Assembly (NCBI RefSeq): GCF_022846255.1 | Contig: NZ_AP025682.1 | Origin: Escherichia coli | GTDB taxonomy: Bacteria; Pseudomonadota; Gammaproteobacteria; Enterobacterales; Enterobacteriaceae | Length of the DNA stretch: 64,000 nt | Strand: one strand, 5' to 3' | Part shown: piece after piece, positions 15,966 through 55,602 of the stretch | Layout: each line of letters begins with the position of its first letter | Numbering within the stretch: position 1 is the stretch's first letter | Program-made: the position numbers and the translations under genes | Notes under the pieces: generated by a model | What the model saw: only the letters and a program-made list of their open reading frames with translations | What the model was told of the DNA's origin: nothing | Database searches by the model: none

Positions 15966-16011
15966 GAATGAGGGTGCCAGTGAGTGCGAAAACTGGCACC
16001 TTTTTCATGAC

Positions 16012-26619: not shown

Positions 26620-27426
26620 ATGCAAACGTGGTTAAATTTGCAGGATAAAATCATTATTGTCACCGGTGGCGCATCCGGTATTGGTCTGGCGATTGTAGAG
26701 GAATTATTAGCACAAGGCGCAAACGTACAGATGGTCGATATTCACGGTGGCGATGGTCAATATGAAGGTCATAAAGGCTATCAGTTTTGGCCGACCGATA
26801 TTTCCAGCGCCAAAGAGGTAAATCATACGGTAGCGGAAATTATCCAGCGTTTTGGTCGCATCGACGGTCTGGTCAATAACGCCGGGGTCAATTTCCCGCG
26901 TCTGCTGATCGACGAGAAAGCGCCTGCCGGGCAGTATGAACTCAACGAAGCTGCATTCGAAAAAATGGTCAATATCAACCAGAAAGGCGTTTTTCTGATG
27001 TCGCAGGCGGTGGCGCGACAGATGGTCAAACAACATGATGGCGTGATTGTGAATGTTTCCTCAGAAAGTGGGCTGGAAGGCTCAGAAGGCCAAAGCTGTT
27101 ACGCCGCGACCAAAGCCGCGCTCAATAGCTTCACGCGCTCCTGGTCGAAAGAGCTGGGTAAGCACGGTATCCGTGTGGTCGGTATCGCGCCAGGGATTCT
27201 GGAAAAAACAGGACTGCGCACGCCGGAATATGAAGAAGCGCTGGCGTGGACGCGCAATATCACCGTCGAGCAGCTGCGTGAAGGCTATACCAAAAATTCC
27301 ATTCCTATTGGGCGCGCCGGAAGATTAGCAGAAGTGGCTGATTTTGTTTGTTATCTGCTGTCTGAACGCGCCAGCTATATCACCGGAGTAACCACTAACA
27401 TTGCGGGCGGCAAAACGCGCGGCTAA
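26620..27426 (+). CDS. sorD: Sorbitol-6-phosphate 2-dehydrogenase-like short-chain dehydrogenase (SorD), 268 aa
   Basis: SDR Rossmann motif TGGASGIGLA and catalytic YxxxK (SCYAATKAALNSF); position after sorC. Confidence 0.8.
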   Translation: MQTWLNLQDKIIIVTGGASGIGLAIVEELLAQGANVQMVDIHGGDGQYEGHKGYQFWPTDISSAKEVNHTVAEIIQRFGRIDGLVNNAGVNFPRLLIDEKAPAGQYELNEAAFEKMVNINQKGVFLMSQAVARQMVKQHDGVIVNVSSESGLEGSEGQSCYAATKAALNSFTRSWSKELGKHGIRVVGIAPGILEKTGLRTPEYEEALAWTRNITVEQLREGYTKNSIPIGRAGRLAEVADFVCYLLSERASYITGVTTNIAGGKTRG

Positions 27427-27435
27427 GGAGGCTTT

Positions 27436-27843
27436 ATGGTCAACGCCATTTTTTGTGCGCATGGCAAATTAGCTTGCGCCATGCTGGAATCGGTTCAGAT
27501 GGTGTACGGCGATGCCAGGGTCGAGGCCGTTGAATTTGTGCCCGGCGAGAACGCCGGAGACATTGTGGCAAAGCTGGAGAAGTTAGTAAGCATTCACAAT
27601 CAAGATAAGTGGCTAATCGCCGTGGATTTACAGTGCGGCAGCCCGTGGAATGCGGCAGCGATGCTTGCGATGCGCAATCCTCGTCTGCGGGTAATCAGCG
27701 GCCTTTCTCTGCCGCTGGCGCTCGAACTGGTTGATAACCAGGACAGCATGAATGTTGATGAACTGTGTGAACACCTGACGCAAATCGCAAAGCAAACCTG
27801 CGTCGTCTGGAGACAGGTGGCAACAGCAGAGGAGGATTTCTGA
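27436..27843 (+). CDS. sorF: PTS mannose-family EIIA component for L-sorbose (SorF), 135 aa
   Basis: N-terminal AHGKLA region typical of EIIA-Man phosphohistidine domain; size and operon position. Confidence 0.85.
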   Translation: MVNAIFCAHGKLACAMLESVQMVYGDARVEAVEFVPGENAGDIVAKLEKLVSIHNQDKWLIAVDLQCGSPWNAAAMLAMRNPRLRVISGLSLPLALELVDNQDSMNVDELCEHLTQIAKQTCVVWRQVATAEEDF

Positions 27844-28337
27844 TGAACATTACGCTCGCCCGCATTGATGACCGCCTGATCCACGGCCAGGTCACTACCG
27901 TCTGGTCTAAAGTGGCTAACGCCCAACGCATTATTATCTGCAATGACGAAGTTTATAACGATGAAGTTCGCCGGACATTATTGCGTCAGGCTGCGCCACC
28001 GGGAATGAAGGTTAACGTGGTCAATATTGAAAAAGCCGTCGCGGTTTATCACAACCCGCAATATCAGGACGAAACCGTTTTTTATCTTTTCACTCGCCCA
28101 CAAGATGCCTTAGCAATGGTTCGCCAGGGGGTAAAAATAGGTACCCTGAATATTGGCGGTATGGCCTGGCGTCCTGGTAAGAAACAGTTAACCAAAGCAG
28201 TTTCATTAGATGACGATGATATTAACGCATTTCATGAGTTAAATAATCTTGGCGTCATACTGGATTTACGCGTCGTAGCGTCAGATCCCTCAATCAATAT
28301 TATCGACAAAATAAACGAACAGTTAATCGCAAATTAA
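27843..28337 (+). CDS. sorB: PTS mannose-family EIIB component for L-sorbose (SorB), 164 aa
   Basis: Conserved N-terminus RIDDRLIHGQV of EIIB-Man family; start overlaps sorF stop (ATGA). Confidence 0.85.
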   Translation: MNITLARIDDRLIHGQVTTVWSKVANAQRIIICNDEVYNDEVRRTLLRQAAPPGMKVNVVNIEKAVAVYHNPQYQDETVFYLFTRPQDALAMVRQGVKIGTLNIGGMAWRPGKKQLTKAVSLDDDDINAFHELNNLGVILDLRVVASDPSINIIDKINEQLIAN

Positions 28338-28402
28338 ATAATAGCGCCTGTGTACATATGCTTTAACAGGCAGGGATGACGACACTTAAAAGGTGACAAA
28401 TT

Positions 28403-29200
28403 ATGGAAATAAGTACCCTACAAATCATTGCTATATTTCTTTTTTCCTGTATTGCCGGAATGGGCAGCGTGCTGGATGAATTTCAGACTCATCGTCCGTT
28501 AATTGCCTGTACGGTGATTGGCTTAATTCTCGGTGATTTAAAAACCGGAATTATGCTCGGTGGTACGCTGGAATTGATAGCTCTCGGCTGGATGAACGTC
28601 GGCGCGGCGCAATCTCCGGATTCTGCACTCGCCAGCATAATCTCCGCCATTCTGGTTATCGTTGGTCAGCAAAGCATCGCCACCGGAATCGCCATCGCGT
28701 TGCCTGTGGCTGCGGCAGGCCAGGTGCTGACGGTGTTTGCCCGTACCATCACCGTAGTGTTCCAGCACGCGGCGGATAAAGCAGCGGAAGAAGCACGGTT
28801 TCGCACTCTCGATATTCTGCATGTCTCCGCGCTTGGCGTGCAGGCACTGCGCGTTGCTATTCCGGCACTGATTGTCTCGCTGTTCGTCAGCGCTGATATG
28901 GTGAGCAATATGCTGAGCGCCATTCCCGAATTTGTGACCCGTGGGCTGCAGATTGCTGGCGGTTTTATCGTGGTGGTCGGTTACGCCATGGTGCTTCGCA
29001 TGATGGGCGTGAAATATTTGATGCCTTTCTTTTTCCTCGGTTTCCTCGCAGGTGGCTACCTCGATCTCAGTCTGCTGGCGTTCGGTGGCGTCGGCGTGAT
29101 CATGGCCCTGCTCTACATCCAGTTAAATCCACAGTGGCGTAAAGCTGAACCACATCCCCAGACCACCACTATCACCGCCCTTGACCAACTTGATGATTAA
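28403..29200 (+). CDS. sorA: PTS mannose-family EIIC component for L-sorbose (SorA), 265 aa
   Basis: Multi-TM permease with EIIC-Man-like length, between EIIB and EIID genes. Confidence 0.85.
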   Translation: MEISTLQIIAIFLFSCIAGMGSVLDEFQTHRPLIACTVIGLILGDLKTGIMLGGTLELIALGWMNVGAAQSPDSALASIISAILVIVGQQSIATGIAIALPVAAAGQVLTVFARTITVVFQHAADKAAEEARFRTLDILHVSALGVQALRVAIPALIVSLFVSADMVSNMLSAIPEFVTRGLQIAGGFIVVVGYAMVLRMMGVKYLMPFFFLGFLAGGYLDLSLLAFGGVGVIMALLYIQLNPQWRKAEPHPQTTTITALDQLDD

Positions 29201-30086: not shown

Positions 30087-31316
30087 ATGAAAACAACAGC
30101 TCTGCGTCTTTATGGCAAACGTGACCTGCGTCTGGAAACCTTTGACCTTCCTGAAATGCAGGAGGATGAAATCCTCGCAACGGTGGTCACTGACAGCCTG
30201 TGCCTCTCTTCCTGGAAAGAGGCCAATCTGGGTGAAAACCATAAAAAAGTACCCGACGATGTGGCGACCAATCCCATCATCATCGGCCACGAATTTTGCG
30301 GCGATATTCTGGCCGTGGGTAAAAAGTGGCAGCACAAATTCCAGCCGGGTCAGCGTTATGTGATTCAGGCCAACCTGCAACTCCCCGACCGCCCGGATTG
30401 CCCCGGCTACTCCTTCCCGTGGGTAGGCGGCGAAGCGACGCATGTGGTTATTCCCAACGAGGTCATGGAACATGATTGCCTGCTGGCATACGACGGCGAA
30501 ACCTATTTTGAAGGCTCGCTGGTTGAACCGCTTTCCTGCGTGATTGGCGCGTTCAACGCCAACTATCATCTTCAGGAAGGTAGTTATAACCACACGATGG
30601 GGATTCGCCCGCAAGGGCGCACGCTGATACTCGGCGGCACCGGCCCGATGGGGCTGCTGGCGATTGATTATGCGCTACATGGACCCGTTAACCCGTCGCT
30701 GCTCGTCATTACCGATACCGACAACGACAAATTGAGTTATGCACGCAAGCACTATCCATCAGAACCACAAACACTGATTCATTATCTCAATGCCGCCGAT
30801 GCAGCATTTGATACGTTAATGGCACTGAGTGGCGGTCACGGCTTCGATGATATTTTCGTCTTTGTGCCTAATGAAGGACTGGTGACTCTCGCCTCTTCCT
30901 TGCTGGCGACAGATGGTTGTCTGAATTTCTTCGCCGGACCGCAGGATAAGCACTTCAGCGCGCCAATTAATTTCTACGATGTGCATTATGCATTTACCCA
31001 CTACGTGGGCACGTCAGGCGGCAATACCGACGACATGCGCGCAGCGGTCAAATTGATTGAAGAGAAAAAAGTGCAGGCCGCAAAAGTGGTAACACATATT
31101 CTTGGGCTGAATGCCGCGGGCGAAACCACGCTTGAATTGCCTGCCGTCGGCGGCGGCAAAAAGCTGGTGTATACCGGGAAATACCTGCCGCTGACGTCAC
31201 TCACGCAGATTCAGGATCAAGCACTGGCGGTGATTCTGGCGCATCATCAGGGGATCTGGTCCGGTGAGGCGGAGCAATACCTGCTCGCCCATGCAGAGGC
31301 AATTTCCCATGATTAA
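30087..31316 (+). CDS. sorE: Sorbose-1-phosphate reductase-like zinc-dependent alcohol dehydrogenase family protein (SorE), 409 aa
   Basis: ORF track 30075..31316; ATG at 30087 after gaggtgg; MDR/zinc-ADH-like sequence (GHEFCGDIL, Rossmann GGTGPMG). Confidence 0.8.
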   Translation: MKTTALRLYGKRDLRLETFDLPEMQEDEILATVVTDSLCLSSWKEANLGENHKKVPDDVATNPIIIGHEFCGDILAVGKKWQHKFQPGQRYVIQANLQLPDRPDCPGYSFPWVGGEATHVVIPNEVMEHDCLLAYDGETYFEGSLVEPLSCVIGAFNANYHLQEGSYNHTMGIRPQGRTLILGGTGPMGLLAIDYALHGPVNPSLLVITDTDNDKLSYARKHYPSEPQTLIHYLNAADAAFDTLMALSGGHGFDDIFVFVPNEGLVTLASSLLATDGCLNFFAGPQDKHFSAPINFYDVHYAFTHYVGTSGGNTDDMRAAVKLIEEKKVQAAKVVTHILGLNAAGETTLELPAVGGGKKLVYTGKYLPLTSLTQIQDQALAVILAHHQGIWSGEAEQYLLAHAEAISHD

Positions 31317-32425: not shown

Positions 32426-32461
32426 GTGCCTGATGCGACGCTTTACGCGTCTTATCAGGCC
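32426..32461. repeat. Single REP unit between pepE and yjbB
   Basis: gtgcctgatgcgacgctttacgcgtcttatcaggcc. Confidence 0.65.
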
Positions 32462-32476
32462 TTCAGGGTCACGGTA

Positions 32477-34108
32477 TTAATACTCGTCCCGTCCTTCATC
32501 TTCATCCGGCTGTTCCAGCACACTGTAAGCCACCGAACAAAACAGCGAGTTCAGACGCTGCATATCTCCCAGTAAGCCTAAATGTAGCGAACTGGTTTCA
32601 ATACTCTGCACGTTTTGCTGGTGCAGGCGATCGACGTGGGCGTGGGAATAGCGGCGATTAAGAATGCGAAAACGATGTTTGCTGCGGCGCAAACGACGGG
32701 CGCTGGTAACATCGCCAGAGAAGAAAACCGACATTGCCAGTTTTAAATTACTGAGCAATTGCTCATAGAGCGCATCCAGTTCCTTCAAGCCATCAAGCGA
32801 AAATGCTCGCCTTGCTGCCAGCGATTTGTCGGCAATTTCACTCCCCATGCGCTCGACGATATCGGAGGCCTGTTCAAGGTTGAGCGACATTTCGATGATC
32901 TCCGCCCAGCGGCGCGACTCTTCTTCTGCCAGTTCCTCTTTTGGCATCCGCGCCAGATACAGCTTAATGGCGGTATAGAGAACGTTGATGTCATCAGCCA
33001 GCTTACGCAGCTCTTTCTCCTGCCGTGGCTCGCCGTGCATCACTTTATTCAGCCCTTCCATCATCTGTTCCATGGCGTCGCCAATGCGCAGGGTTTCGCG
33101 GGCAGCGTTCGCCAGAGCAAGCGTGGGCGTATCCAGCGCGCTGACATCCAGATGTTTAGGCCGTAGCTGGGTATCCAGTTCCGGTTCATCGCGAATAATC
33201 GTTTTGCAAAACCGTGCCATCGGGTCAACGAATGGCAACATGACCAGGCAGCGTACAAGGTTGTAGAAGACGTGGAAATAGATCACCAATTCCGCTTTTG
33301 GCAATGGCAACTTCCCCATTGTCTCTGCCAGCAAATGAACAAACGGCAGGATAATCAGGCTACCCACCAGCTTAAACAGCAGGCTACCCAGCGCGACACG
33401 GCGGGCTGCGGCATTGGCGGCACTGTTGTTGAGCATCGCCAGCAGGCCGGAACCGAGGTTTGCACCAATCACCAGACAAAGCGCCACTGGGAAAGAGATA
33501 ATGCCTGCGGCGGTCAGAGTCGCGGTCAGCAGTACCGCGGCAAGGCTGGAGTAGCTGATAATGGCGAACATCGCACCAATCAGCGCATCCAGCAAAATGT
33601 CGCCAGTCAGCGAGGCAAAGATCACCTGAACGCCGTTTGCCTGAGTGATCGGCGTTACGGCCTGCACAATCAACTCCAGCGCCAGTAAAATCAGCCCAAG
33701 ACCAATACCGACGCGGCCCAGTTGCCCGGCGCGTGACTGTTTGCGTCCGAGGAAAAAAATCACGCCGATAAAAATAAGTAACGGTGACAGCCAGGATAAA
33801 TCGAAGGTGAGAATACGCGCCATCAGCGCCGTCCCGACATCTGCACCCAGCACAATCACCAGCGCAGGCGCGAGAGCAACCAGATCCTGAGCGACGAACG
33901 AGGTCACCAGCATGGTGGTGGCATTACTGCTCTGCACCAGTGCGGTAACGCCTATCCCCGCGCAAAAGGCGAGCGGCTTCTTTTCGACGCTCCGGCTAAG
34001 GACAGTACGCAGACGCGCGCCGAAGACGCGCATTACGCCTGTTCGAACAATATGAGTCCCCCAGACCAGCAGGGCGACGGCAGAAAGCAGGTGAAGCAGC
34101 GTTAACAC
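32477..34108 (-). CDS. yjbB: Na+/phosphate symporter family protein YjbB, 543 aa
   Basis: Multi-TM N-terminal half plus PhoU-like C-terminal domain; length and position match remembered yjbB. Confidence 0.88.
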   Translation of the reverse strand: MLTLLHLLSAVALLVWGTHIVRTGVMRVFGARLRTVLSRSVEKKPLAFCAGIGVTALVQSSNATTMLVTSFVAQDLVALAPALVIVLGADVGTALMARILTFDLSWLSPLLIFIGVIFFLGRKQSRAGQLGRVGIGLGLILLALELIVQAVTPITQANGVQVIFASLTGDILLDALIGAMFAIISYSSLAAVLLTATLTAAGIISFPVALCLVIGANLGSGLLAMLNNSAANAAARRVALGSLLFKLVGSLIILPFVHLLAETMGKLPLPKAELVIYFHVFYNLVRCLVMLPFVDPMARFCKTIIRDEPELDTQLRPKHLDVSALDTPTLALANAARETLRIGDAMEQMMEGLNKVMHGEPRQEKELRKLADDINVLYTAIKLYLARMPKEELAEEESRRWAEIIEMSLNLEQASDIVERMGSEIADKSLAARRAFSLDGLKELDALYEQLLSNLKLAMSVFFSGDVTSARRLRRSKHRFRILNRRYSHAHVDRLHQQNVQSIETSSLHLGLLGDMQRLNSLFCSVAYSVLEQPDEDEGRDEY

Positions 34109-34327
34109 GAGTTCAGGTTCTCCTTATCGTTATATGTTCCTGAAGCAATTGAATGACCAAAGGACCGGAAACACGCTGACTGGCATCTTTACTGTGCCTT
34201 TTGACCTTCGTTTTTCCGGCTAAGATTATTCCAGCCTGTTTCCAGTATAAGTGTTTCATATTAATAAAGAGACAGGGCACTCATTGAGCGCCCTGTTTGT
34301 TGTAAGGAAAAGTGACAGATTTGTGAA

Positions 34328-38011
<3,684 letters not shown>

Positions 38012-38172
38012 ACTTGCTCCCGACACGCTTAACCCAGATTTAATAAAAATTCAACAAACCATACTGGCATAAACGCATCTGTGGTAAAAGCGACCACCAC
38101 GCAACATGAGATTTGTTCAACATTAACTCATCGGATCTGTTCAGCAACTATTGCATTCGCTGATAATAAAAA

Positions 38173-38187
38173 TGAAAATGATTTCCA
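38173..38187 (+). promoter_or_regulatory. IclR-box-like palindrome in iclR promoter (autoregulation site)
   Basis: tgaaaatgatttcca matches remembered IclR box TGGAAATNATTTCCA at 14 of 15 positions, about 25 bp upstream of iclR ATG. Confidence 0.6.
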
Positions 38188-38210
38188 CGATACAGAAAAA
38201 GGAGACTGTC

Positions 38211-39035
38211 ATGGTCGCACCCATTCCCGCGAAACGCGGCAGAAAACCCGCCGTTGCCACCGCACCAGCGACTGGACAGGTTCAGTCTTTAACGCGTGGC
38301 CTGAAATTACTGGAGTGGATTGCCGAATCCAATGGCAGTGTGGCACTCACGGAGCTGGCGCAACAAGCCGGGTTACCCAATTCCACGACCCACCGCCTGC
38401 TAACCACGATGCAACAGCAGGGTTTCGTGCGTCAGGTTGGCGAACTGGGACACTGGGCAATCGGCGCACATGCCTTTATGGTCGGCAGCAGCTTTCTCCA
38501 GAGCCGTAATTTGTTAGCAATTGTTCACCCTATCCTGCGCAATCTAATGGAAGAGTCTGGCGAAACGGTCAATATGGCGGTGCTTGATCAAAGCGATCAT
38601 GAAGCGATTATTATCGACCAGGTACAGTGTACCCACCTGATGCGAATGTCCGCGCCTATCGGCGGTAAATTACCTATGCACGCTTCCGGTGCGGGTAAAG
38701 CCTTTTTAGCCCAACTGAGCGAAGAACAGGTGACGAAGCTGCTGCACCGCAAAGGGTTACATGCCTATACCCACGCAACGCTGGTGTCTCCTGTGCATTT
38801 AAAAGAAGATCTCGCCCAAACGCGCAAACGGGGTTATTCATTTGACGATGAGGAACATGCGCTGGGGCTACGTTGCCTTGCAGCCTGTATTTTCGATGAG
38901 CACCGCGAACCGTTTGCCGCAATTTCAATTTCCGGACCGATTTCACGTATTACCGATGACCGCGTGACCGAGTTTGGCGCGATGGTGATTAAAGCGGCGA
39001 AGGAAGTGACGCTGGCGTACGGTGGAATACGCTGA
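38211..39035 (+). CDS. iclR: Glyoxylate-bypass repressor IclR, 274 aa
   Basis: ORF track 38151..39035; start at MVAPIPAKRGRKPAVATAPATGQVQSLTRGLKLLEWIAESNGSVALTELAQQAGLPNSTTHRLL. Confidence 0.93.
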   Translation: MVAPIPAKRGRKPAVATAPATGQVQSLTRGLKLLEWIAESNGSVALTELAQQAGLPNSTTHRLLTTMQQQGFVRQVGELGHWAIGAHAFMVGSSFLQSRNLLAIVHPILRNLMEESGETVNMAVLDQSDHEAIIIDQVQCTHLMRMSAPIGGKLPMHASGAGKAFLAQLSEEQVTKLLHRKGLHAYTHATLVSPVHLKEDLAQTRKRGYSFDDEEHALGLRCLAACIFDEHREPFAAISISGPISRITDDRVTEFGAMVIKAAKEVTLAYGGIR

Positions 39036-39051
39036 CTTTTTCGCCTCTGAT

Positions 39052-40877
<1,826 letters not shown>

Positions 40878-40900
40878 AGTCAGCAACGTTTATCGGTTGC

Positions 40901-42205
40901 TTAGAACTGCGATTCTTCGGTGGAGCCGGTCAGCGCGGTAACTGAAGACGTGCCACCTTGAATAATGGTCGTCACTTTATCGAAGTAACCTGTACCCACT
41001 TCCTGCTGGTGAGATACGAAGGTATAGCCATCTTTCGCAGCGGCAAATTCCGGCTGCTGCACTTTCTCAACATAGTGCTTCATACCCTCACCCTGGGCAT
41101 AGGCGTTTGCCAGGTCAAACATGTTGAACCACATGCTGTGGATACCTGCCAGGGTGATGAACTGGAACTTGTAGCCCATATCCGACAGCTGCTGCTGGAA
41201 GCTGGCAATAGTTTTGTCGTCGAGGTTTTTCTGCCAGTTGAACGAAGGCGAGCAGTTATAAGCCAGCAGTTTGCCCGGATATTTCGCGTGGATGGCTTGT
41301 GCAAAGCGACGCGCCAGTTCCAGGTCCGGCGTGGAGGTTTCACACCATACCAGGTCAGCATATGGCGCATACGCCAGGCCACGGCTGATCGCTTGCTCAA
41401 TACCCGCATGAGTACGGAAGAAGCCTTCACTGGTACGCTCGCCAGTAATAAATTCTCTGTCATATGGGTCGCAATCGGAGGTAATCAGATCCGCCGCATC
41501 GGCATCGGTACGAGCAACCAGCAGGGTTGGAACGCCCGTCACATCAGCTGCCAGACGCGCCGCGACCAGTTTCTGAATAGCTTCCTGAGTTGGCACCAAA
41601 ACTTTGCCGCCCATGTGACCACATTTCTTCACTGATGCCAGCTGATCTTCGAAGTGAACTGCCGCTGCACCGGCTTCAATCATCGCTTTCATCAGTTCAA
41701 AGGCATTCAGTACACCGCCAAAACCGGCCTCCGCATCGGCGACGATCGGCAGGAAGTAATCGACATAGTGCGGATCGCCCGGCTCAATGCCCGCGGACCA
41801 TTGGATCTGATCCGCACGGCGGAAAGTATTGTTGATCCGCTCCACCACAGCTGGCACCGAGTTTGCCGGATAGAGCGACTGATCCGGATACATGCTGGCC
41901 GCCAGGTTAGCGTCCGCCGCTACCTGCCATCCCGACAGATAGACTGCTTCAATACCCGCTTTCGCCTGTTGCAGCGCCTGACCGCCAGTCAGTGCACCGA
42001 GGCTGTTGATGTAGCCTTTTTTCGACTCGCCGTGCAGCAGACGCCACATTTTCGCCGCGCCCAGTTGCGCCAGGGTGCATTCCGGATTGACCGAACCGCG
42101 TAATTTCACCACATCTTCCGCGCTGTACGGGCGAGTAATGCCTTCCCAACGCGGTTGAGTCCACTCTTTCTGTAATTCTTCAATTTGTTGTGTACGGGTT
42201 TTCAT
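40901..42205 (-). CDS. aceA: Isocitrate lyase AceA, 434 aa
   Basis: ORF track 40901..42220; start at [38 protein letters not shown]; catalytic KKCGH motif present. Confidence 0.96.
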
Positions 42206-42234
42206 GTGCAGATGCTCCATAGTTATGTAGTGGT

Positions 42235-43836
42235 TTACGCTAACAGGCGGTAGCCTGGCAGGGTCAGGAAATCAATTAGCTCATCGGAAGTGGTGATCTG
42301 TTCCATCAAGCGTGCGGCATCGTCAAAACGCCCATGGGAGAAACGTTCTTCGCCCAGTTCGCTGGCAATGACTTTCATCTCTTCGCCCAGCATCTGGCGG
42401 AACAAGGCTTTAGTCACCGGTTTGCCATTGCTCAACGTTTTTTGATGATGGATCCACTGCCAGATTGAGGTACGGGAAATTTCAGCCGTCGCCGCATCTT
42501 CCATCAGGCCATAAATCGGCACACAGCCATTGCCAGAGATCCACGCTTCGATGTACTGCACAGCCACGCGAATGTTGGCGCGCATACCTTCTTCGGTGCG
42601 TTCACCATCACAAGGTGCCAGCAGCTGATCGGCAGTAATCGGCGCGTCTTGTTCGCGCATCACCTCAAGCTGGTTTTTGCGGGAGCCGAGAATATCGTTG
42701 AATACCGCCATTGCCGTATCAGCAAGGCCCGGGTGAGCGATCCATGTGCCATCGTGACCGTTATTGGCTTCCAGCGATTTATCCGCTTTTACTTTGTCGA
42801 GCACCTGGTTATTGCGCTCTTCATCTTTGCTCGGAATAAACGCCGCCATGCCGCCCATCGCAAAAGCACCGCGTTTATGGCAGGTTTTAATCAACAGGCG
42901 TGAGTAAGCATTCAGGAAGGGTTTATCCATCGTCACTGCCTGTCTGTCTGGCAGGACGCGATCGGGATAGTTTTTCAATGTTTTGATATAACTGAAGATG
43001 TAATCCCAGCGACCGCAGTTCAGACCAACAATATGGTCACGCAGCGCGTGAAGGATTTCATCCATCTGGAACACGGCGGGCAGCGTTTCAATCAGCAACG
43101 TCGCCTTGATGGTGCCGCGCGGCAGATTAAAGCGATCTTCTGCATAGCTGAAGACTTCGCTCCACCAGGCCGCTTCCTGCCAGGACTGGGTTTTCGGCAG
43201 ATAGAAATAGGGACCGCTGCCCTTTGCCAACAGTGCCTGATAGTTGTGGAAGAAATAGAGCGCAAAATCAAACAGGCTACCGGGGATTGTCTCACCACGC
43301 CAGGTGACATGTTTTTCCGGCAAGTGCAGACCGCGTACCCGACAAATCAAAACCGCTGGATTGGGCTTGAGCTGATAAATTTTGCCTGCTTCATTGCTAT
43401 AGCTGATGGTGCCGTTAACCGCATCGCGCAGGTTAATTTGCCCATCGATCACTTTGTTCCAGTCTGGTGCCAGTGAATCTTCGAAATCGGCCATAAAGAC
43501 TTTCACATTGGCGTTGAGCGCGTTGATCACCATCTTGCGCTCTACAGGTCCGGTAATCTCTACGCGACGATCTTCTAAGTCCGCAGGAATCCCGCTAATT
43601 TTCCAGTCAGCATCACGAATGGAAGCTGTTTCCGAAATGAAATCAGGCAACGTTCCGTTATCGATATCCTGCTGCTGCTGAATGCGCGCTGCCAGAAGTT
43701 TATTGCGTTGTGGCGTAAAATGCGTCACCAGCTCAGTCAGAAATTCTACCGCTTCGGCAGTAAGAATTTGCTTCTCCTGCTCGCCATACGGCCTTGTAAA
43801 AGCCAGTTCATCGATTGTTGTTGCCTGTTCAGTCAT
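42235..43836 (-). CDS. aceB: Malate synthase A AceB, 533 aa
   Basis: ORF track 42235..43854; start at [40 protein letters not shown]. Confidence 0.95.
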
Positions 43837-44029
43837 CGTGCAGCTCCTCGTCATGGATCCGAAAACTTCCCCACTGTGAACGAAGGATCGTTGTGCGCTT
43901 TTCGTTCAGCACAACTAAGACTACTCATTTAAAATGCAAAATCAAAAACAATTTCCATTTTAATTAAAAATACATGTTAACTTACTGATAACAATATAAA
44001 TAAAATTTATTCACTTGCTGAGGTGTGTT

Positions 44030-44060
44030 TCGGAAATAAAAAAGGCACCCGAAGGTGCCT
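44030..44060 (-). terminator. Rho-independent terminator downstream of metA
   Basis: On minus strand hairpin aggcaccttcgggtgcct followed by ttttttatttcc; lies just past metA stop (44105). Confidence 0.6.
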
Positions 44061-44104
44061 GAGGTAAAGTGCTGAATCGCTTAACGATCGACTATCACAG
44101 AAGA

Positions 44105-45034
44105 TTAATCCAGCGTTGGATTCATGTGCCGTAGATCGTATGGCGTGATCTGGTAGACGTAATAGTTGAGCCAGTTGGTAAACAGCAAATTACCGTGACT
44201 ACGCCAGCTCGCTCGCGGTTTGTTTTGCGGATCATTGTGCGGGAAATAGTTATACGGTACATCCGGATCCAGTCCGGCTTCCACATCGCGGAAAAATTCC
44301 TGCGCCAGCGTTTGCGCATCATATTCGGGATGGCCCGTCACAAAGGCAATTCGCTTATCTTTGCTGGCAAACAGATATGCATCCCCTTCTTCCGTCTCTG
44401 CCAGAATTTCCAGATCGGTGTAATCACGAATCAACGCTGCCGGAAAGTCAGCATAGCGCGAATGCGGTGCCAGGAATGAATCATCAAAGCCACGCGTCAG
44501 AAGCGCATGAGGATGGAGAATATGATGCTCGTAAACGCCAGAGAGTTTGTCGGTGCGGGTTTGCTTAGGAATGCCGTAGAGGATATTGAGCGCGGCCTGT
44601 ACAGCCCAGCAGACAAACAGCGTCGAGGTAACGTGATCTTTCGACCACTCCAGCACCTGTTTGATCTGCGGCCAGTAAGCGACATCATTAAACTCCACCA
44701 GGCCCAGCGGCGCGCCGGTAACTATCAGACCGTCAAAGTTTTGTTCCTGAATATCTTCAAAGTTACAGTAGAAGTTATTCAGATGCTCTGCGGGCGTGTT
44801 GCGCGATTCACGGGAATCGATGCGCAACAGCTGAATATCGACCTGCAAAGGTGAGTTTGAAAGCAGGCGCAGAAACTGATTTTCAGTTTCGATCTTCTTC
44901 GGCATCAGGTTAAGGATAAGCACCTTTAGCGGACGAATTTCCTGACCAGACGCGCGAGAAGTTGTCATCACAAAGACGTTTTCTTCACGCAAGAAATTGA
45001 CGGCGGGTAGCTCGTCCGGCACACGAATCGGCAT
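44105..45034 (-). CDS. metA: Homoserine O-succinyltransferase MetA, 309 aa
   Basis: Translation [89 protein letters not shown]. Confidence 0.96.
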
Positions 45035-45190
45035 AACCTGATTACCTCACTACATACGCTTATACGTTTAGACATCCAGATAGCTGAAGATAACCAGAAA
45101 ATTTACCAATGTCGAGCCTGCATGTTGAAGGTGAGAAAGTTTCAAGGAAAAGGCTACGTTAGAATATAAGAATGACGAAAAGGAGAGAAA

Positions 45191-45634
45191 ATGGTTATTA
45201 GTATTCGCCGCTCACGGCATGAGGAGGGGGAGGAACTCGTTGCGATTTGGTGTCGTTCTGTCGATGCCACTCACGATTTTTTATCAGCAGAGTATCGGGC
45301 CGAGCTGGAAGAGCTGGTGCATTCCTTTCTGCCGGAAGCACCGTTGTGGGTCGCGGTTAATGAGCGGGATCAGCCGGTTGGGTTTATGTTGTTAAGTGGG
45401 CAGCATATGGATGCGCTGTTTATCGATCCTGATGTGCGCGGCTGCGGCGTGGGCCGGATGCTGGTGAAGCATGCGCTCTCAATGGCCCCGGAACTGACAA
45501 CCAATGTTAATGAGCAAAATGAGCAGGCGGTTGGGTTCTATAAGAAGGTGGGCTTTAAGGTTACGGAACGCTCTGAGGTGGACGATTTGGGGAAACCGTA
45601 TCCGTTGCTGAATCTGGCATATGTGGGGGAATAA
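45191..45634 (+). CDS. yjaB: GNAT-family N-acetyltransferase YjaB, 147 aa
   Basis: GNAT acetyl-CoA binding motif (RGCGVGRMLVKHAL), size 147 aa, position next to metA. Confidence 0.85.
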   Translation: MVISIRRSRHEEGEELVAIWCRSVDATHDFLSAEYRAELEELVHSFLPEAPLWVAVNERDQPVGFMLLSGQHMDALFIDPDVRGCGVGRMLVKHALSMAPELTTNVNEQNEQAVGFYKKVGFKVTERSEVDDLGKPYPLLNLAYVGE

Positions 45635-45679
45635 GCTGCCCCCTATCGTGCTATCGTGCCTGCGTAAGCTGGAGCAGAC

Positions 45680-45744
45680 GCGCCAGCGTCGCAGCCGGCC
45701 TTTTTCTGCACCAGCGCAAAAAGGCCATCCTGACGGATGGCCTT
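45680..45744. terminator. Convergent terminator region between yjaB and rrfE (rrn operon terminator on minus strand; T-run after GC-rich segment on plus strand)
   Basis: Minus-strand hairpin aaggccatccgtcaggatggcctt followed by tttttgcgc, immediately 3' of 5S rRNA; plus strand ccggcc + ttttt after yjaB. Confidence 0.55.
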
Positions 45745-45756
45745 CTGCTTAATTTG

Positions 45757-45876
45757 ATGCCTGGCAGTTCCCTACTCTCGCATGGGGAGACCCCACACTA
45801 CCATCGGCGCTACGGCGTTTCACTTCTGAGTTCGGCATGGGGTCAGGTGGGACCACCGCGCTACGGCCGCCAGGCA
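45757..45876 (-). rRNA. rrfE: 5S ribosomal RNA (rrfE-type)
   Basis: Reverse complement reads TGCCTGGCGGCCGTAGCGCGGTGGTCCCACCTGACCCCATGCCGAACTCAGAAGTGAAACGCCGTAGCGCCGATGGTAGTGTGGGGTCTCCCCATGCGAGAGTAGGGAACTGCCAGGCAT, the E. coli 5S sequence. Confidence 0.96.
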
Positions 45877-45974
45877 AATTCTGTTTTATCAACACGTCTC
45901 GTTATGACCTGTCGATTTAATCTGTATCAGGCTGAAAATCTTCTCTCTATCCGCCAAAACATCTTCGGCGTTGT

Positions 45975-48879
<2,905 letters not shown>

Positions 48880-49072
48880 TCACAACCCGAAGATGTTTCT
48901 TGCGATTCATCATCGTGTTGCGAAAATTTGAGAGACTCACGAACAACTCTCGTTGTTCAGTGTTTCAATTTTCAGCTTGATCCAGATTTTTAAAGAGCAA
49001 ATATCTCAAACATCACCCGAAGATGAGTTTTGAGATATTAAGGCAGGTGACTTTCACTCACAAACCAGCAAG

Positions 49073-49148
49073 TGGCGTCCCCTAGGGGATTCGAACCCCT
49101 GTTACCGCCGTGAAAGGGCGGTGTCCTGGGCCTCTAGACGAAGGGGAC
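49073..49148 (-). tRNA. gltV: tRNA-Glu (UUC) in 16S-23S spacer
   Basis: Reverse complement reads GTCCCCTTCGTCTAGAGGCCCAGGACACCGCCCTTTCACGGCGGTAACAGGGGTTCGAATCCCCTAGGGGACGCCA. Confidence 0.96.
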
Positions 49149-49233
49149 GTATCAGTCTGCTTCGCAAGACGCCTTGCTTTTCACTTTCTATCAGACAATC
49201 TGTGTGAGCACTTCAAAGTACGCTTCTTTAAGG

Positions 49234-50775
<1,542 letters not shown>

Positions 50776-51389: not shown

Positions 51390-52979
51390 ATGCAACAACG
51401 TCGTCCAGTCCGCCGCGCTCTGCTCAGTGTTTCTGACAAAGCCGGTATCGTCGAATTCGCCCAGGCACTTTCCGCACGCGGTGTGGAGCTGCTGTCTACA
51501 GGGGGCACTGCCCGTCTGTTAGCAGAAAAAGGTCTGCCGGTAACCGAAGTTTCCGATTACACCGGTTTCCCGGAGATGATGGATGGACGCGTGAAGACCC
51601 TGCATCCGAAAGTACATGGTGGCATTCTGGGCCGTCGCGGCCAGGACGATACCATTATGGAAGAACATCAGATCCAGCCTATCGATATGGTGGTTGTTAA
51701 CCTGTATCCGTTCGCCCAGACCGTTGCTCGTGAAGGCTGCTCGCTGGAAGATGCGGTTGAGAACATCGATATCGGCGGCCCGACGATGGTGCGCTCTGCC
51801 GCCAAGAACCATAAAGATGTCGCCATCGTGGTGAAGAGCAGCGACTACGACGCCATTATTAAAGAGATGGATGCCAACGAAGGATCGCTGACGCTTGCAA
51901 CCCGTTTCGACCTCGCTATCAAAGCCTTTGAACATACCGCCGCCTACGACAGCATGATTGCCAACTACTTCGGCAGCATGGTCCCAGCCTATCACGGTGA
52001 AAGCAAAGAAGCCGCCGGTCGCTTCCCACGCACGCTGAACCTGAACTTCATTAAGAAGCAGGATATGCGTTACGGCGAGAACAGCCACCAGCAGGCTGCC
52101 TTCTATATAGAAGAGAATGTAAAAGAAGCCTCCGTTGCTACCGCAACCCAGGTTCAGGGTAAAGCCCTCTCTTATAACAACATCGCCGATACCGATGCGG
52201 CGCTGGAGTGCGTGAAAGAGTTCGCCGAGCCGGCATGTGTGATTGTGAAGCACGCCAACCCTTGCGGCGTGGCTATCGGCAATTCCATTCTTGATGCTTA
52301 CGATCGCGCGTACAAAACCGACCCGACCTCCGCGTTCGGCGGCATTATCGCCTTTAACCGCGAGCTGGATGCGGAAACCGCGCAGGCCATCATTTCTCGT
52401 CAGTTCGTCGAAGTGATTATTGCGCCGTCCGCCAGCGAAGAAGCACTGAAAATCACCGCCGCCAAGCAGAACGTACGCGTTCTGACCTGCGGTCAGTGGG
52501 GCGAGCGTGTTCCGGGTCTTGATTTCAAACGAGTTAACGGCGGTCTGCTGGTTCAGGATCGCGATCTGGGCATGGTCGGCGCGGAAGAACTGCGCGTCGT
52601 CACCAAACGTCAGCCGACTGAACAAGAGCTGCGTGATGCGCTGTTCTGCTGGAAAGTGGCGAAGTTCGTGAAATCCAACGCCATCGTCTATGCCAAAAAC
52701 AATATGACCATCGGCATTGGCGCGGGCCAGATGAGCCGCGTGTACTCCGCAAAAATCGCCGGTATTAAAGCCGCCGATGAAGGTCTGGAAGTGAAAGGTT
52801 CCTCAATGGCTTCTGACGCGTTCTTCCCGTTCCGCGACGGTATTGATGCCGCCGCCGCTGCGGGCGTGACCTGCGTAATCCAGCCTGGCGGTTCTATCCG
52901 TGATGACGAAGTGATTGCCGCCGCCGACGAGCACGGTATTGCGATGCTCTTCACCGACATGCGCCACTTCCGCCATTAA
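51390..52979 (+). CDS. purH: Bifunctional AICAR transformylase / IMP cyclohydrolase PurH, 529 aa
   Basis: Translation [87 protein letters not shown]. Confidence 0.96.
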
Positions 52980-52990
52980 TGGAGCGACAG

Positions 52991-54280
52991 ATGAAAGTAT
53001 TAGTGATTGGTAACGGCGGGCGCGAGCACGCGCTGGCCTGGAAAGCGGCACAGTCGCCGCTGGTTGAGACTGTTTTTGTTGCTCCGGGTAACGCAGGCAC
53101 TGCGCTGGAGCCTGCACTGCAAAACGTCGCTATCGGCGTAACCGATATCCCGGCGCTGCTGGATTTCGCACAAAACGAAAAGATCGATCTAACCATCGTC
53201 GGCCCGGAAGCGCCGCTGGTGAAAGGCGTGGTCGATACCTTCCGCGCCGCCGGGCTAAAAATCTTCGGCCCAACCGCAGGCGCCGCGCAACTGGAAGGCT
53301 CGAAAGCGTTTACCAAGGATTTCCTGGCCCGCCATAAGATCCCTACGGCGGAATACCAGAACTTCACCGAGGTCGAACCTGCGCTGGCGTATCTGCGTGA
53401 AAAAGGCGCGCCAATCGTCATTAAAGCGGACGGTCTGGCTGCTGGGAAAGGCGTGATCGTGGCGATGACGCTCGCAGAAGCCGAAGCCGCCGTTCACGAC
53501 ATGCTGGCGGGCAATGCGTTTGGCGATGCGGGCCATCGCATCGTCATCGAAGAATTCCTCGACGGCGAAGAAGCCAGTTTCATCGTGATGGTGGACGGCG
53601 AGCATGTGCTGCCGATGGCCACCAGCCAGGATCACAAACGCGTAGGCGATAAAGATACCGGACCAAACACGGGCGGGATGGGCGCTTACTCCCCTGCGCC
53701 AGTAGTGACCGATGAGGTTCATCAGCGCACGATGGAGCGTATCATCTGGCCAACCGTGAAAGGCATGGCGGCGGAAGGCAACACCTACACTGGTTTTCTC
53801 TACGCGGGCCTGATGATCGACAAACAGGGCAATCCGAAGGTTATTGAATTTAACTGCCGCTTTGGCGATCCGGAAACCCAGCCGATTATGCTGCGCATGA
53901 AGTCCGATCTGGTTGAGCTCTGCCTGGCGGCCTGTGAAGGCAAGCTGGACGAGAAAACGTCCGAGTGGGATGAACGCGCTTCTCTCGGCGTGGTGATGGC
54001 TGCGGGTGGATATCCGGGCGATTACCGCACCGGCGATGTGATCCACGGCCTGCCGCTGGAAGAAGTGGCAGACGGCAAAGTGTTCCACGCGGGCACGAAA
54101 CTAGCGGATGACGAGCAGGTAGTGACCAGCGGCGGGCGCGTACTGTGCGTTACCGCGCTGGGTCATACCGTGGCAGAAGCGCAGAAACGCGCTTATGCCT
54201 TAATGACCGATATCCATTGGGACGACTGCTTCTGCCGGAAAGATATCGGCTGGCGCGCTATCGAACGCGAGCAGAACTAA
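52991..54280 (+). CDS. purD: Phosphoribosylamine-glycine ligase PurD, 429 aa
   Basis: ORF track 52979..54280; start at MKVLVIGNGGREHALAWKAAQSPLVETVFVAPGNAGTA; ATP-grasp fold. Confidence 0.95.
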   Translation: MKVLVIGNGGREHALAWKAAQSPLVETVFVAPGNAGTALEPALQNVAIGVTDIPALLDFAQNEKIDLTIVGPEAPLVKGVVDTFRAAGLKIFGPTAGAAQLEGSKAFTKDFLARHKIPTAEYQNFTEVEPALAYLREKGAPIVIKADGLAAGKGVIVAMTLAEAEAAVHDMLAGNAFGDAGHRIVIEEFLDGEEASFIVMVDGEHVLPMATSQDHKRVGDKDTGPNTGGMGAYSPAPVVTDEVHQRTMERIIWPTVKGMAAEGNTYTGFLYAGLMIDKQGNPKVIEFNCRFGDPETQPIMLRMKSDLVELCLAACEGKLDEKTSEWDERASLGVVMAAGGYPGDYRTGDVIHGLPLEEVADGKVFHAGTKLADDEQVVTSGGRVLCVTALGHTVAEAQKRAYALMTDIHWDDCFCRKDIGWRAIEREQN

Positions 54281-55602
54281 CGCGACAGTTTTGCCAATAG
54301 CGTTTTGCGCGTGATCCCTAACTGGCGGGCGGCTTCGGTTTTGTTGCCGCCCGTTTTCTCCAGCGCCGCCAGAATCACCTCTTTTTCGACTTCCACCAGC
54401 GGCTGAATATCCTGACTTTGTACCAGCGGGATCGGCGTACTGGCAATCGCCAGCGGCAGCTCGCGTTCGGAAATATATTCCCCGGTCAGCAGCACCACCG
54501 CCCGTTCCACCGCGTTTTCCAGTTCACGAATATTTCCCGGCCAGTCGTAATGAATCAGCAGATCCATCGCCTGGGGCGTAAAGCCTTTTACCGCCTTGCG
54601 ATTACGTTCGGCAAAGCGCTGAAGAAAATGGCCAGCCAGCAGAGGAATATCTTCCCGCCGTTGCCGCAGCGATGGTACTTCAATCGCCACCACGTTCAGC
54701 CGATAGTAGAGATCCTGGCGAAAACGCCCGGCATTCACCTCTGCGGCAAGATCGCGATGGGTTGCCGCAATCAGCCGGACATCAACCGAAATAGTCTGGT
54801 TGCTACCGACACGCTGAACTTCGCGCTCCTGAATCGCACGTAGCAGACGCACCTGCATCATCGGCGAGATATCGCCAATTTCATCGAGAAACAACGTGCC
54901 GCCGTCCGCCTCAACAAAGCGCCCTTCCCGGCGTTTGTCGGCCCCGGTAAACGCCCCTTTTTCGTGACCGAACAATTCAGACTCCAGCAAGGATTCGTTG
55001 AGCGCCGCGCAGTTGAGCGTTACCAGCGGTTTTTCGCTACGTGCGCTACTGGCGTGAATCGCCCTGGCGACCAGCTCTTTACCGGTGCCGGAATCGCCGT
55101 GGATCAGCACCGTGGCTTCCGATGGCGCGACGAGGGCGATTTCACTGAGCAGGTGTTGCATCGCCGGGCTTTTACCGACCATACCGAACTGGCTGGCAGA
55201 CACCGCAGGCGTTTCAGCGTCAACACTGTGTGTATGCGCGAGCGCCTTTTCCAGCGTCGCCTGTAGGTTATCGAAATCCAGCGGCTTGATGAGATAATCC
55301 AGCGCCCCGGTTTTCAACGCCTCTACCGCCGTCTCGACGCTGGAGTACGCGGTCATAATCAGCACCGGAATCGCGGGGTTTAATGTTTTGATCTCTTTTA
55401 GCGTGGCGATGCCGTCCATCTCTGCCATTCGCACATCGCAAAGCACAAGATCAAAAACCTGTTCCCGCACCTGCTCCAGCGCCTGTCGCCCGCTGTTCGC
55501 CAGCGCGACGTTATAGCCCCAGCCGCGCAGCAAAGCCTGCAAAATAGTGCAGTGGCTAATGTCATCATCCACCACCAGAATATCGATATTATCGTGCGTC
55601 AT
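54277..55602 (-). CDS. zraR: Sigma-54-dependent response regulator ZraR (HydG), 441 aa
   Basis: Receiver domain (DILVVDDD...D54-like), AAA+ sigma54-activation domain with GAFTGA motif (EKGAFTGA) and C-terminal HTH; overlaps zraS stop by 4 nt. Confidence 0.93.

What the first reader, a model, noticed from the sequence alone, without database searches (positions are those of the whole stretch)
45635..45756. yjaB abuts the 5S rRNA terminator: yjaA absent
Only about 120 bp of terminator structure separate yjaB from the rrfE-type 5S gene. In K-12 I recall yjaA (another Clermont phylotyping marker) between rrfE and yjaB. With arpA also absent, the marker combination would point to a non-A/B1 lineage (candidates: phylogroup F or some B2, or a cryptic Escherichia clade). 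This is inference from only two of the four markers.
Basis: partly seen in the sequence, partly recalled or inferred. Interest (0 to 1): 0.35.

Follow-up and report, generated by a model that had tools for sequence, protein, structure and literature searches.

The report
Ordinary yjaA-less rrnE–yjaB spacer
The gene yjaA really is missing between the 5S rRNA gene and yjaB, but this is the ordinary gene-less version of the locus carried by about half of all E. coli; the only mild oddity is that the surrounding DNA looks like phylogroup B2, which normally has yjaA.

Summary
yjaB ends at 45634 and the rrnE 5S gene ends at 45757. The 122 bp between them hold no yjaA coding sequence, relic or primer site.

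The interval is not a deletion scar. It is the standard yjaA-less allele of this spacer:
- the conserved rrn terminator hairpin
- one degenerate REP palindrome
- an 8-bp tandem duplication

The allele is common. 2,821 of 5,426 complete E. coli genomes carry it and 2,594 carry the yjaA cassette. Salmonella, Citrobacter and Klebsiella also have yjaB abutting the 5S gene.

arpA is also absent. iclR and aceK lie 16 bp apart, as in the B2, F and G references.

Over about 18 kb of shared columns the window groups with five B2 references (100% bootstrap; 98.7–99.2% identity). It does not group with F or G (about 97.5–97.7%), and a cryptic clade is excluded (92–96%).

All five B2 references carry yjaA. 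No complete RefSeq E. coli genome combines a B2-like yjaB with this junction, so this is an atypical yjaA-negative B2-type strain.

The gene polymorphism itself is already known; it is a Clermont typing marker. Interest is low.

The parts
45191..45634 (+). yjaB (GNAT acetyltransferase, 147 aa), convergent with rrnE. It is B2-like up to its stop codon. Its last sense codon is GAA (Glu), as in yjaA-less alleles; K-12 has GCG (Ala).
   Evidence: ORF. RefSeq annotations of the homologous gene. SNP table. The alignment with K-12 breaks inside the last codon.
45635..45756 (.). 122-bp rrfE-yjaB spacer, the yjaA-less allele. This is the finding's interval.
   Evidence: Non-homologous to the 520-bp K-12 segment that holds yjaA. 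Co-linear with the spacers of G, F, E and B1 strains and of Escherichia sp. E1V33. A junction-spanning query is fully covered in 2,821 of 5,426 complete E. coli genomes.
45625..45643 (+). Small hairpin (GGGGG, 9-nt loop, CCCCC) that encloses the yjaB stop codon.
   Evidence: Minimum-free-energy fold of the + strand.
45643..45658 (.). 8-bp tandem duplication, CTATCGTG twice.
   Evidence: Repeat family D2. The duplication is shared with F, G, LR134078 and CP159994. E, B1 and E1V33 have one copy.
45668..45699 (.). Degenerate REP-type palindrome. Its core TGCGACGCTGGCGCGTCT lies at 45676-45693 on the - strand.
   Evidence: The same core, at up to 2 mismatches, falls inside each of the window's four Rfam naRNA4/REP hits. 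There is a sub-threshold naRNA4 match at 45673-45726 (18.7 bits, E = 0.4). The hairpin appears in the fold.
45716..45747 (-). rrnE intrinsic terminator: stem AAGGCCATCC/GGATGGCCTT, 4-nt loop, then UUUUUGCG on the rrn sense strand. On the opposite strand it is possibly a weak terminator for yjaB.
   Evidence: Inverted repeat I1. Hairpin energy -23.6 kcal/mol, z = -6.2. In 14 aligned sequences from six genera no pair is broken except one cell, and one pair shows a compensatory G-C to C-G switch, 7 versus 7. The simple terminator scan did not flag it.
45757..45876 (-). 5S rRNA gene (rrfE).
   Evidence: Rfam RF00001 at 45759-45874, 92.8 bits. Alignment to K-12 rrfE.
45975..50775 (-). Rest of the rrnE operon: 23S at 45975-48879, tRNA-Glu(UUC) at 49073-49148, 16S at 49234-50775.
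   Evidence: Same order as K-12 rrsE-gltV-rrlE-rrfE.
39036..39051 (.). arpA-less junction: 16 bp between the stop codons of iclR (about 38211-39035, +) and aceK (39052-40776, -; 574 aa).
   Evidence: ORFs. The B2 type strain, G and F strain IAI39 have the same spacing. A 301-bp query across the junction is fully covered in 1,308 of 5,426 genomes and is 100% identical in BH100. arpA DNA is present in 4,105 genomes.
44105..45034 (-). metA, the left-hand synteny anchor.
   Evidence: ORF. Homologous genes are annotated.

Best explanation
The 122-bp interval is the ordinary yjaA-less allele of the spacer between the rrnE operon and the convergent gene yjaB.

Layout, read on the rrn sense (-) strand from the 5S end:
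- about 12 nt of trailer
- the conserved rrn terminator hairpin (10-bp stem, 4-nt loop, U-run)
- one degenerate REP palindrome
- an 8-bp tandem duplication
- the yjaB stop codon, held in a small hairpin

Inferred function. The terminator stops rrnE transcription. The REP element and the hairpins close and stabilise the yjaB 3' end. Together they insulate two converging transcription units.

yjaA is absent because the window carries the alternative haplotype, not because the gene was deleted. The yjaA-positive allele differs over the whole stretch, from 7 nt after the 5S gene to the last codon of yjaB. It has a different terminator, then yjaA, then its own spacer.

Both alleles are old. The yjaA-less form occurs in Salmonella, Citrobacter, Klebsiella and Pseudocitrobacter. 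The yjaA form occurs in Kosakonia and Phytobacter. Homologous recombination moves the alleles between lineages.

The window's flanking DNA is of B2 type and arpA-less. Its spacer is the F/G sub-type, carrying the 8-bp duplication. So this is a yjaA-negative strain of B2 affinity. Either it kept the allele of the B2/F/G ancestor, or it regained that allele by recombination. The direction is inferred, not shown.
For: Anatomy:
- ORFs, rRNA and tRNA.
- Repeats and folds.
- REP core shared with the window's four naRNA4 hits.
- Terminator conserved across six genera, with one compensatory pair.

Allelic replacement rather than deletion:
- Homology to K-12 stops right after 5S plus CAAATTA and resumes in the last codon of yjaB.
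- The window has the GGCCATCC-type terminator, not the K-12 CCCCGG-type.
- The spacer is co-linear with those of the G, F, E and B1 strains and E1V33.

Frequency:
- 2,821 genomes carry the yjaA-less junction and 2,594 the yjaA cassette, out of 5,426.

Other genera:
- yjaB abuts the 5S gene in Salmonella, Citrobacter, Klebsiella and Pseudocitrobacter.
- yjaA occupies the same slot in Kosakonia and Phytobacter, at 65-66% amino-acid identity and with a conserved ribosome-binding-site region.

Recombination at the locus:
- In E. whittamii the yjaB-yjaA-rrfE segment is about 99% identical to K-12, while its flanks are about 93%.
- LR782233 has a B2-like flank but a B1-type spacer.

Lineage:
- 98.7-99.2% identity to five B2 references, about 97.5-97.7% to F and G, 96.8-97.1% to the A, B1, E and other arpA-positive references.
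- The B2+window clade has 100% bootstrap overall and 91-100% in four sub-regions, including 40800-45634, which ends at the junction.
Against: - Lineage is inferred from one 25-kb stretch of a mosaic chromosome. Parts of the window are closer to G (14-16 kb) or to nothing sampled (51.9-54.3 kb).
- chuA, TspE4.C2 and the whole-genome position are unknown.
- All five B2 references carry yjaA. Since no complete RefSeq genome pairs a B2-like yjaB with this junction, the combination is unusual and its origin is unresolved.
- Only one or two SNPs near the yjaB 3' end bear on a crossover point.
- Terminator and insulator function is predicted, not measured. The consensus terminator scan found no site.
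Confidence: 0.82

Rival explanations
1. The window comes from a phylogroup F or G strain. Those groups normally show the arpA-negative, yjaA-negative pattern.
For: F strain IAI39 and the G-type APEC O78:H4 have the same gene order: arpA-less, with yjaB abutting the 5S gene. The window's spacer is closest to the F-like strain EC200461 and to IAI39, and shares their 8-bp duplication. Like G, the window lacks the two small genes between yjbB and metH.
Against: Over 18,338 shared columns the window differs from F and G at 416-462 sites, but from B2 references at only 153-232. Bootstrap support for window+G and for window+F is 0% in every sub-region. The shikimate dehydrogenase gene that the two F-type references carry between sorE and pepE is absent from the window (versus).
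Confidence: 0.08
2. yjaA was deleted recently from a normal yjaA-positive B2 allele.
For: The flanking genes are B2-like, and every B2 reference examined carries yjaA.
Against: A deletion would leave the K-12/B2-type terminator (CCCCGGTCCATAAGGCCGGGG) or part of the yjaA-yjaB spacer. Instead, the whole interval is the yjaA-less haplotype, including the REP element and the F/G-type 8-bp duplication. There is no YjaA-coding relic.
Confidence: 0.03
3. The window comes from a cryptic Escherichia clade or another Escherichia species.
For: The arpA-negative, yjaA-negative pattern also occurs outside E. coli sensu stricto. Escherichia sp. E1V33 has the same yjaA-less junction.
Against: Identity is 93-96% to E1V33, 92-93% to E. 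whittamii and about 94% to E. albertii, compared with about 99% to B2 E. coli. In the rooted tree the window sits deep inside E. coli.
Confidence: 0.01
4. The junction is an assembly artefact: a mis-join at the rrn repeat that skipped yjaA.
For: rRNA operons often break or mis-join assemblies. The independent 100%-identical contig from run DRR322657 covers only 32433-40868, not the junction.
Against: The junction is base-for-base co-linear with thousands of finished genomes. A mis-join to another rrn operon would not reproduce the locus-specific REP and duplication next to yjaB.
Confidence: 0.02

Closest known systems
yjaA presence/absence marker of the Clermont triplex and quadruplex phylotyping schemes
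   Same: This is the same locus and the same polymorphism. The window is negative in silico for the yjaA primers and for the arpA reverse primer, while K-12 gives the expected 211-bp and 400-bp products (primers from PMC4322292; scheme described in PMC6113867).
   Different: Nothing differs at the level of the marker. The unusual point is the background: the published B2 profiles read here are arpA-negative, chuA-positive, yjaA-positive (PMC4322292 figure legend), and this B2-like segment is yjaA-negative. From my own recollection of Clermont 2013 and 2019, not checked here, a (- + - +) profile is also accepted as B2 or G.
yjaA-less rrfE-yjaB spacer of E. coli phylogroups F and G (IAI39, EC200461, APEC O78:H4)
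   Same: Same length class (122-123 bp), and the same REP element, terminator and 8-bp tandem duplication. There are only a few substitutions, 2-3 against EC200461.
   Different: The adjacent yjaB and aceBAK-metA genes are of B2 type, not F or G type.
rrn operon distal terminator hairpin of Enterobacteriaceae
   Same: The stem GGCCATCC/GGATGGCC followed by UUUUUGCG lies directly after the 5S gene in Escherichia, Citrobacter, Klebsiella, Salmonella, Pseudocitrobacter and Kosakonia. From memory it matches the sequence known as rrnB T2; this was not checked with a tool.
   Different: The loop is inverted relative to some close relatives: CCGTCAGG here, CCTGACGG in others. K-12 rrnE, the yjaA allele, uses an unrelated hairpin.
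REP / BIME extragenic palindromes (Rfam naRNA4, RF02564)
   Same: The 18-nt core is shared with the window's four bona fide naRNA4/REP hits, and it lies between convergent 3' ends.
   Different: It is a single, degenerate copy scoring 18.7 bits against a gathering score of 59.5.

Membership tests
yjaA-negative allele (Clermont marker) | No amplicon from primers yjaA.1b and yjaA.2b, and no YjaA coding sequence | tested here: met
   No primer site at up to 4 mismatches in the window; the K-12 control gives 211 bp. tblastn best E = 7.6. Only the 64-kb window could be tested, not the whole genome.
yjaA-negative allele (Clermont marker) | The junction is homologous to that of known yjaA-negative genomes | tested here: met
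   Co-linear with the G, F, E and B1 strains. Full-length matches in 2,821 of 5,426 genomes.
arpA-negative allele (Clermont marker) | No product from primers AceK.f and ArpA1.r; iclR and aceK adjacent | tested here: met
   The ArpA1.r site is absent. AceK.f is present with 2 mismatches. The iclR-aceK gap is 16 bp. There is no ArpA tblastn hit. The junction is 100% identical to that of B2 strain BH100.
E. coli phylogroup B2 | Clusters with B2 strains in a sequence phylogeny | tested here: met
   Local test only: 18,338 shared columns, 100% bootstrap for the B2+window clade, 91-100% in four sub-regions. The whole genome is not available.
E. coli phylogroup B2 | Typical quadruplex profile: arpA-negative, chuA-positive, yjaA-positive | tested here: not met
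   arpA-negative is met, but yjaA is absent.
E. coli phylogroup B2 | chuA present; TspE4.C2 status | not testable with these tools
   Neither locus lies in the window; no primer sites were found.
E. coli phylogroup F | Profile arpA-negative, chuA-positive, yjaA-negative, TspE4.C2-negative, and clustering with F strains | tested here: not met
   The two testable markers fit. However, the window does not cluster with IAI39 or CUVET19-1993 (0% bootstrap; 416-462 differences against 153-232 to B2).
E. coli phylogroup G | Clusters with ST117-type strains; ybgD marker | tested here: not met
   0% bootstrap for window+G. ybgD is not in the window.
Cryptic Escherichia clades, E. albertii, E. whittamii | Sequence divergence from E. 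coli at species or clade level | tested here: not met
   92-96% identity to E1V33, E. whittamii and E. albertii, against about 99% to B2.
Intrinsic (Rho-independent) terminator | G+C-rich hairpin followed by a U-run at the 3' end of a transcription unit | tested here: met
   A 10-bp stem, -23.6 kcal/mol, z = -6.2, then UUUUUGCG. Conserved with one compensatory pair. The simple scan did not list it. Actual termination was not measured.
REP element | Match to the REP consensus or covariance model, and an imperfect palindrome | tested here: inconclusive
   The core is identical to the other REP copies in the window, but the Rfam naRNA4 score is 18.7 bits against a gathering score of 59.5.

The most novel reading that the evidence does not exclude
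The window may represent a rare B2 sub-lineage. The lineage is also present in sequencing run DRR322657, whose contig matches the window exactly upstream of the junction. Three other B2-like chromosomes (LR134078, CP159994, LR782233) share the yjaA-less state.

This sub-lineage either branched before most of B2 acquired the yjaA cassette and the two-gene insert between yjbB and metH, or swapped both back by recombination.

Such strains would be typed as F, or as B2/G, by the Clermont PCR depending only on TspE4.C2. They could also help date the gain of yjaA within B2.
Probability: 0.35. Interest if true: 0.25.

Novelty: already known. Interest (0 to 1): 0.12.

Why it matters
Practical consequence. 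The marker state arpA-negative, yjaA-negative would lead PCR or in-silico Clermont typing to call this strain F, or B2/G, although its local sequence is B2. This is a known weakness of marker-based typing when recombination shuffles the markers (PMC6113867, PMC4138120).

Biological point. The locus is a clean example of two ancient alternative haplotypes kept at one position and exchanged by homologous recombination, even between species (the E. whittamii case). Nothing here changes what is known about yjaA, rrnE termination or E. coli population structure.

Tried and rejected
1. Ranking of BLAST hits. These first suggested that G/F strains were the closest relatives, at 97.7-98.2%. This was an artefact of ranking by coverage times identity: B2 genomes lose coverage because of the yjaA cassette and an extra two-gene insert. 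Per-base profiles and trees showed B2 to be closest.

2. Looking for the source genome by exact protein match.
- AceK occurs only in contigs from a single run, DRR322657.
- The exact YjaB protein occurs in LR134078, CP159994 and LR782233. Their loci are 98.6-98.9% identical to the window, they are not in the annotated collection, and I could not name them.

3. Relic of yjaA. A faint similarity between the window's GCGCTGGTGCAGAAAAAG and the last codons of yjaA is too short to count. The same motif, GCG-YTG-GTG, follows the terminator in yjaA-less Salmonella and Citrobacter.

4. The 23S-5S spacer as a clue to a recombination donor. It is G-like here, with 1 mismatch in 45751-46000 against 17 for the B2 type strain. 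I rejected this because rrn spacers vary between operons and undergo gene conversion.

5. Whether the window is basal to B2. Support is 85% overall but only 1-61% in sub-regions, so this is unresolved.

6. Literature searches for yjaA-negative B2 lineages found nothing specific.

7. The consensus terminator scan found no site, although the hairpin is clear in folding and conservation analyses.

Full report
**1. The observation**

The window carries the rrnE operon on the minus strand:
- 16S at 49234-50775
- tRNA-Glu(UUC) at 49073-49148
- 23S at 45975-48879
- 5S at 45759-45874 by Rfam

purH lies upstream. Downstream are yjaB (45191-45634, + strand) and metA (44105-45034, - strand). Aligned to K-12 rrfE, the 5S gene ends at 45757.

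In K-12 MG1655 the order is rrfE (b4010), yjaA (b4011), yjaB (b4012), metA.

The window contains no yjaA:
- tblastn with K-12 YjaA gives only noise, best E = 7.6.
- Both Clermont yjaA primers lack any site at up to 4 mismatches. In K-12 they give the expected 211-bp product (primer sequences from PMC4322292).

arpA is absent too:
- iclR ends at 39035 and aceK at 39052, 16 bp apart.
- There is no ArpA tblastn hit.
- The ArpA1.r primer site is missing.

**2. What the 122 bp are**

The interval is not the K-12 region with yjaA cut out. Homology to K-12 stops 7 nt after the 5S gene and resumes only inside the last codon of yjaB. This codon is GAA here and GCG in K-12. Between those points, 122 bp in the window replace 520 bp in K-12, and even the rrn terminator differs.

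On the rrn sense strand the interval reads, in order:
- A short trailer.
- A perfect 10-bp stem (AAGGCCATCC/GGATGGCCTT) with a 4-nt loop, followed by UUUUUGCG. Its energy is -23.6 kcal/mol, z = -6.2.
- A palindrome whose 18-nt core, TGCGACGCTGGCGCGTCT, recurs at up to 2 mismatches inside each of the window's four Rfam naRNA4/REP hits. The palindrome itself scores below threshold for that family.
- An 8-bp tandem duplication, CTATCGTG twice.
- A 5-bp hairpin enclosing the yjaB stop codon.

The terminator hairpin and its U-run follow the 5S gene in Escherichia, Citrobacter, Klebsiella, Salmonella, Pseudocitrobacter and Kosakonia. One base pair is switched G-C to C-G in half of the 14 aligned sequences.

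My reading is that this is a convergent-terminator and insulator spacer. The function is inferred from structure and conservation. It was not measured, and the simple terminator scan did not flag the hairpin.

**3. How common it is**

- A query spanning the yjaB 3' end and the spacer is fully covered in 2,821 of 5,426 complete E. coli genomes.
- The K-12 yjaA cassette is found in 2,594 genomes, almost always once per genome.
- The two counts add up to nearly the whole collection. The locus is therefore a two-allele polymorphism at roughly 52:48.
- F strain IAI39, a G-type APEC O78:H4, an O157:H7 (E) and an O26 (B1) all have yjaB abutting the 5S gene.
- The arpA-less iclR-aceK junction is fully covered in 1,308 genomes. 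arpA DNA is present in 4,105.

**4. Age of the two alleles**

A scan of one genome per species with YjaB as query gave two groups:
- In Salmonella, Citrobacter, Klebsiella and Pseudocitrobacter, the 5S gene lies 90-280 bp beyond yjaB with no yjaA. The spacer usually holds REP elements plus the same terminator.
- In Kosakonia and Phytobacter, yjaA (65-66% amino-acid identity to K-12) sits in the same slot. It lies directly after the GGCCATCC-type terminator, and the ribosome-binding region is conserved.

Both arrangements therefore predate E. coli.

Recombination moves them between lineages. In the E. whittamii reference genome the yjaB-yjaA-rrfE segment differs from K-12 at 11 of about 1,150 positions, whereas its aceA-aceB-metA flank is about 7% divergent.

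**5. Lineage**

The first BLAST rankings put G/F strains on top at 97.7-98.2%. That was an artefact of ranking by coverage. A 25-kb query found B2 strains (BH100, Nissle 1917, the type strain ATCC 11775) at 98.9-99.1%. F/G-like strains were at 97.7%, O157:H7 at 97.0% and K-12 at 96.7%.

I fetched the homologous region from five B2 strains and from G, two F-type, E, B1, A and one further arpA-positive strain. Each was projected onto window coordinates.

Over 18,338 shared columns:
- The window is 98.7-99.2% identical to the B2 strains. The B2 strains are 98.85-99.4% identical to each other.
- It is about 97.5-97.7% identical to F and G.
- It is 96.8-97.1% identical to the A, B1, E and other arpA-positive references.

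Neighbour-joining trees:
- B2+window has 100% bootstrap overall, and 91-100% in each of four sub-regions. One of these is 40800-45634, which ends at the junction.
- Window+G and window+F have 0%.
- Whether the window is basal to, or nested within, the five B2 strains is not stable (85% overall, 1-61% by sub-region).

Escherichia sp. E1V33 and E. whittamii are only 92-96% identical to the window and fall outside E. coli in the rooted tree.

So the strain is not A or B1, not F or G, and not a cryptic clade. It has B2 affinity. The caveat is that this rests on about 25 kb of a visibly mosaic chromosome.

**6. The one unusual point**

- All five B2 references carry yjaA.
- No complete RefSeq E. 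coli genome combines a B2-like yjaB with the yjaA-less junction. The best full-length matches, at 96.9-98.2%, are G or F-like strains.

The lineage does exist elsewhere:
- A contig from run DRR322657 is 100% identical to window 32433-40868.
- Three GenBank chromosomes (LR134078, CP159994, LR782233) encode exactly the same YjaB protein. They have B2-like aceB-metA sequence and also lack yjaA.

The window's spacer is the F/G sub-type: it has the 8-bp duplication and is 2-3 substitutions from the F-like EC200461. LR782233 instead carries a B1-type spacer.

Near the yjaB 3' end the window shares one SNP with G and with the three yjaA-less B2-like genomes, against all yjaA-positive B2 strains.

These data fit two readings:
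- retention of the ancestral allele of the arpA-less B2/F/G clade
- replacement of a yjaA allele by recombination, with a crossover in the yjaB 3' end

I cannot decide between these two. A simple deletion is excluded, because nothing of the yjaA-type terminator or spacer remains.

**7. Comparison with what is known, and verdict**

The presence or absence of yjaA and arpA is the basis of the Clermont typing schemes (PMC6113867; PMC4322292). Recombination-driven mis-typing is documented (PMC6113867; PMC4138120).

The interval is a member of the known yjaA-less allele class, with the known rrn terminator and a REP-type element. Nothing here is new in kind. The atypical marker state in a B2-type background is a minor epidemiological curiosity: PCR would call the strain F, or B2/G, depending on TspE4.C2. 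Interest is low.

Noticed in passing
L003 (E. whittamii Sa2BVA5), about 9700-11035: The yjaB-yjaA-rrfE segment is about 99% identical to E. coli K-12 (11 mismatches in about 1,150 bp; YjaA is 100% identical). The adjacent aceA-aceB-metA region is about 93% identical. This looks like a recent cross-species import of the yjaA cassette by homologous recombination.
   Followed up: partly
window 51900-54300 (purH 3' end and purD): The best identity to any of 5,420 complete E. coli genomes is only 97.3%, although neighbouring DNA is about 99% identical to B2. This is a divergent patch from an unsampled donor.
   Followed up: partly
window 34109-34327 (yjbB-metH gap): The window lacks two small hypothetical genes that all five B2 references and F strain IAI39 carry here. 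The G, E, B1 and A references lack them too. This is a second indel at which the window departs from typical B2.
   Followed up: no
window 45731-45734 (terminator loop): The 4-nt loop, together with its closing pair, is inverted between close relatives. On the rrn sense strand it reads CCGTCAGG in the window, G and B1, but CCTGACGG in LR134078, O157:H7, Salmonella and Klebsiella. This would fit a hairpin template-switch or gene conversion between rrn operons.
   Followed up: no
window 14001-16000: This stretch is 99.85% identical to the G-type APEC strain but only 97.75% identical to the B2 type strain, the reverse of most of the window. It is a sign of a mosaic chromosome.
   Followed up: no
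window 39431-39450 (aceK): The Clermont AceK.f primer site carries 2 mismatches in this strain. This has no effect here because arpA is absent.
   Followed up: no
window 40804-40874 (aceK-aceA spacer); L050 22916-24264; L049 5262-6610: Where the window has a REP/naRNA4 element, B2 strain BH100 and F strain IAI39 each carry an IS1397 insertion. From my own knowledge, IS1397 is known to target REP/BIME elements.
   Followed up: no
L057 (strain 98190) about 30629-30910; L018 (S. enterica diarizonae) downstream of yjaB: Some genomes have a longer spacer of about 280-305 bp. It holds an rrnB-like double terminator (a T1-type hairpin, then a 5S-end relic, then the T2-type hairpin). This is a third structural variant of the locus.
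   Followed up: no
L055 (strain CUVET19-1993) 26964-28423: In this F-like strain an IS3-family element truncates yjaB itself. This accounts for some of the roughly 11 genomes that fit neither allele count.
   Followed up: no
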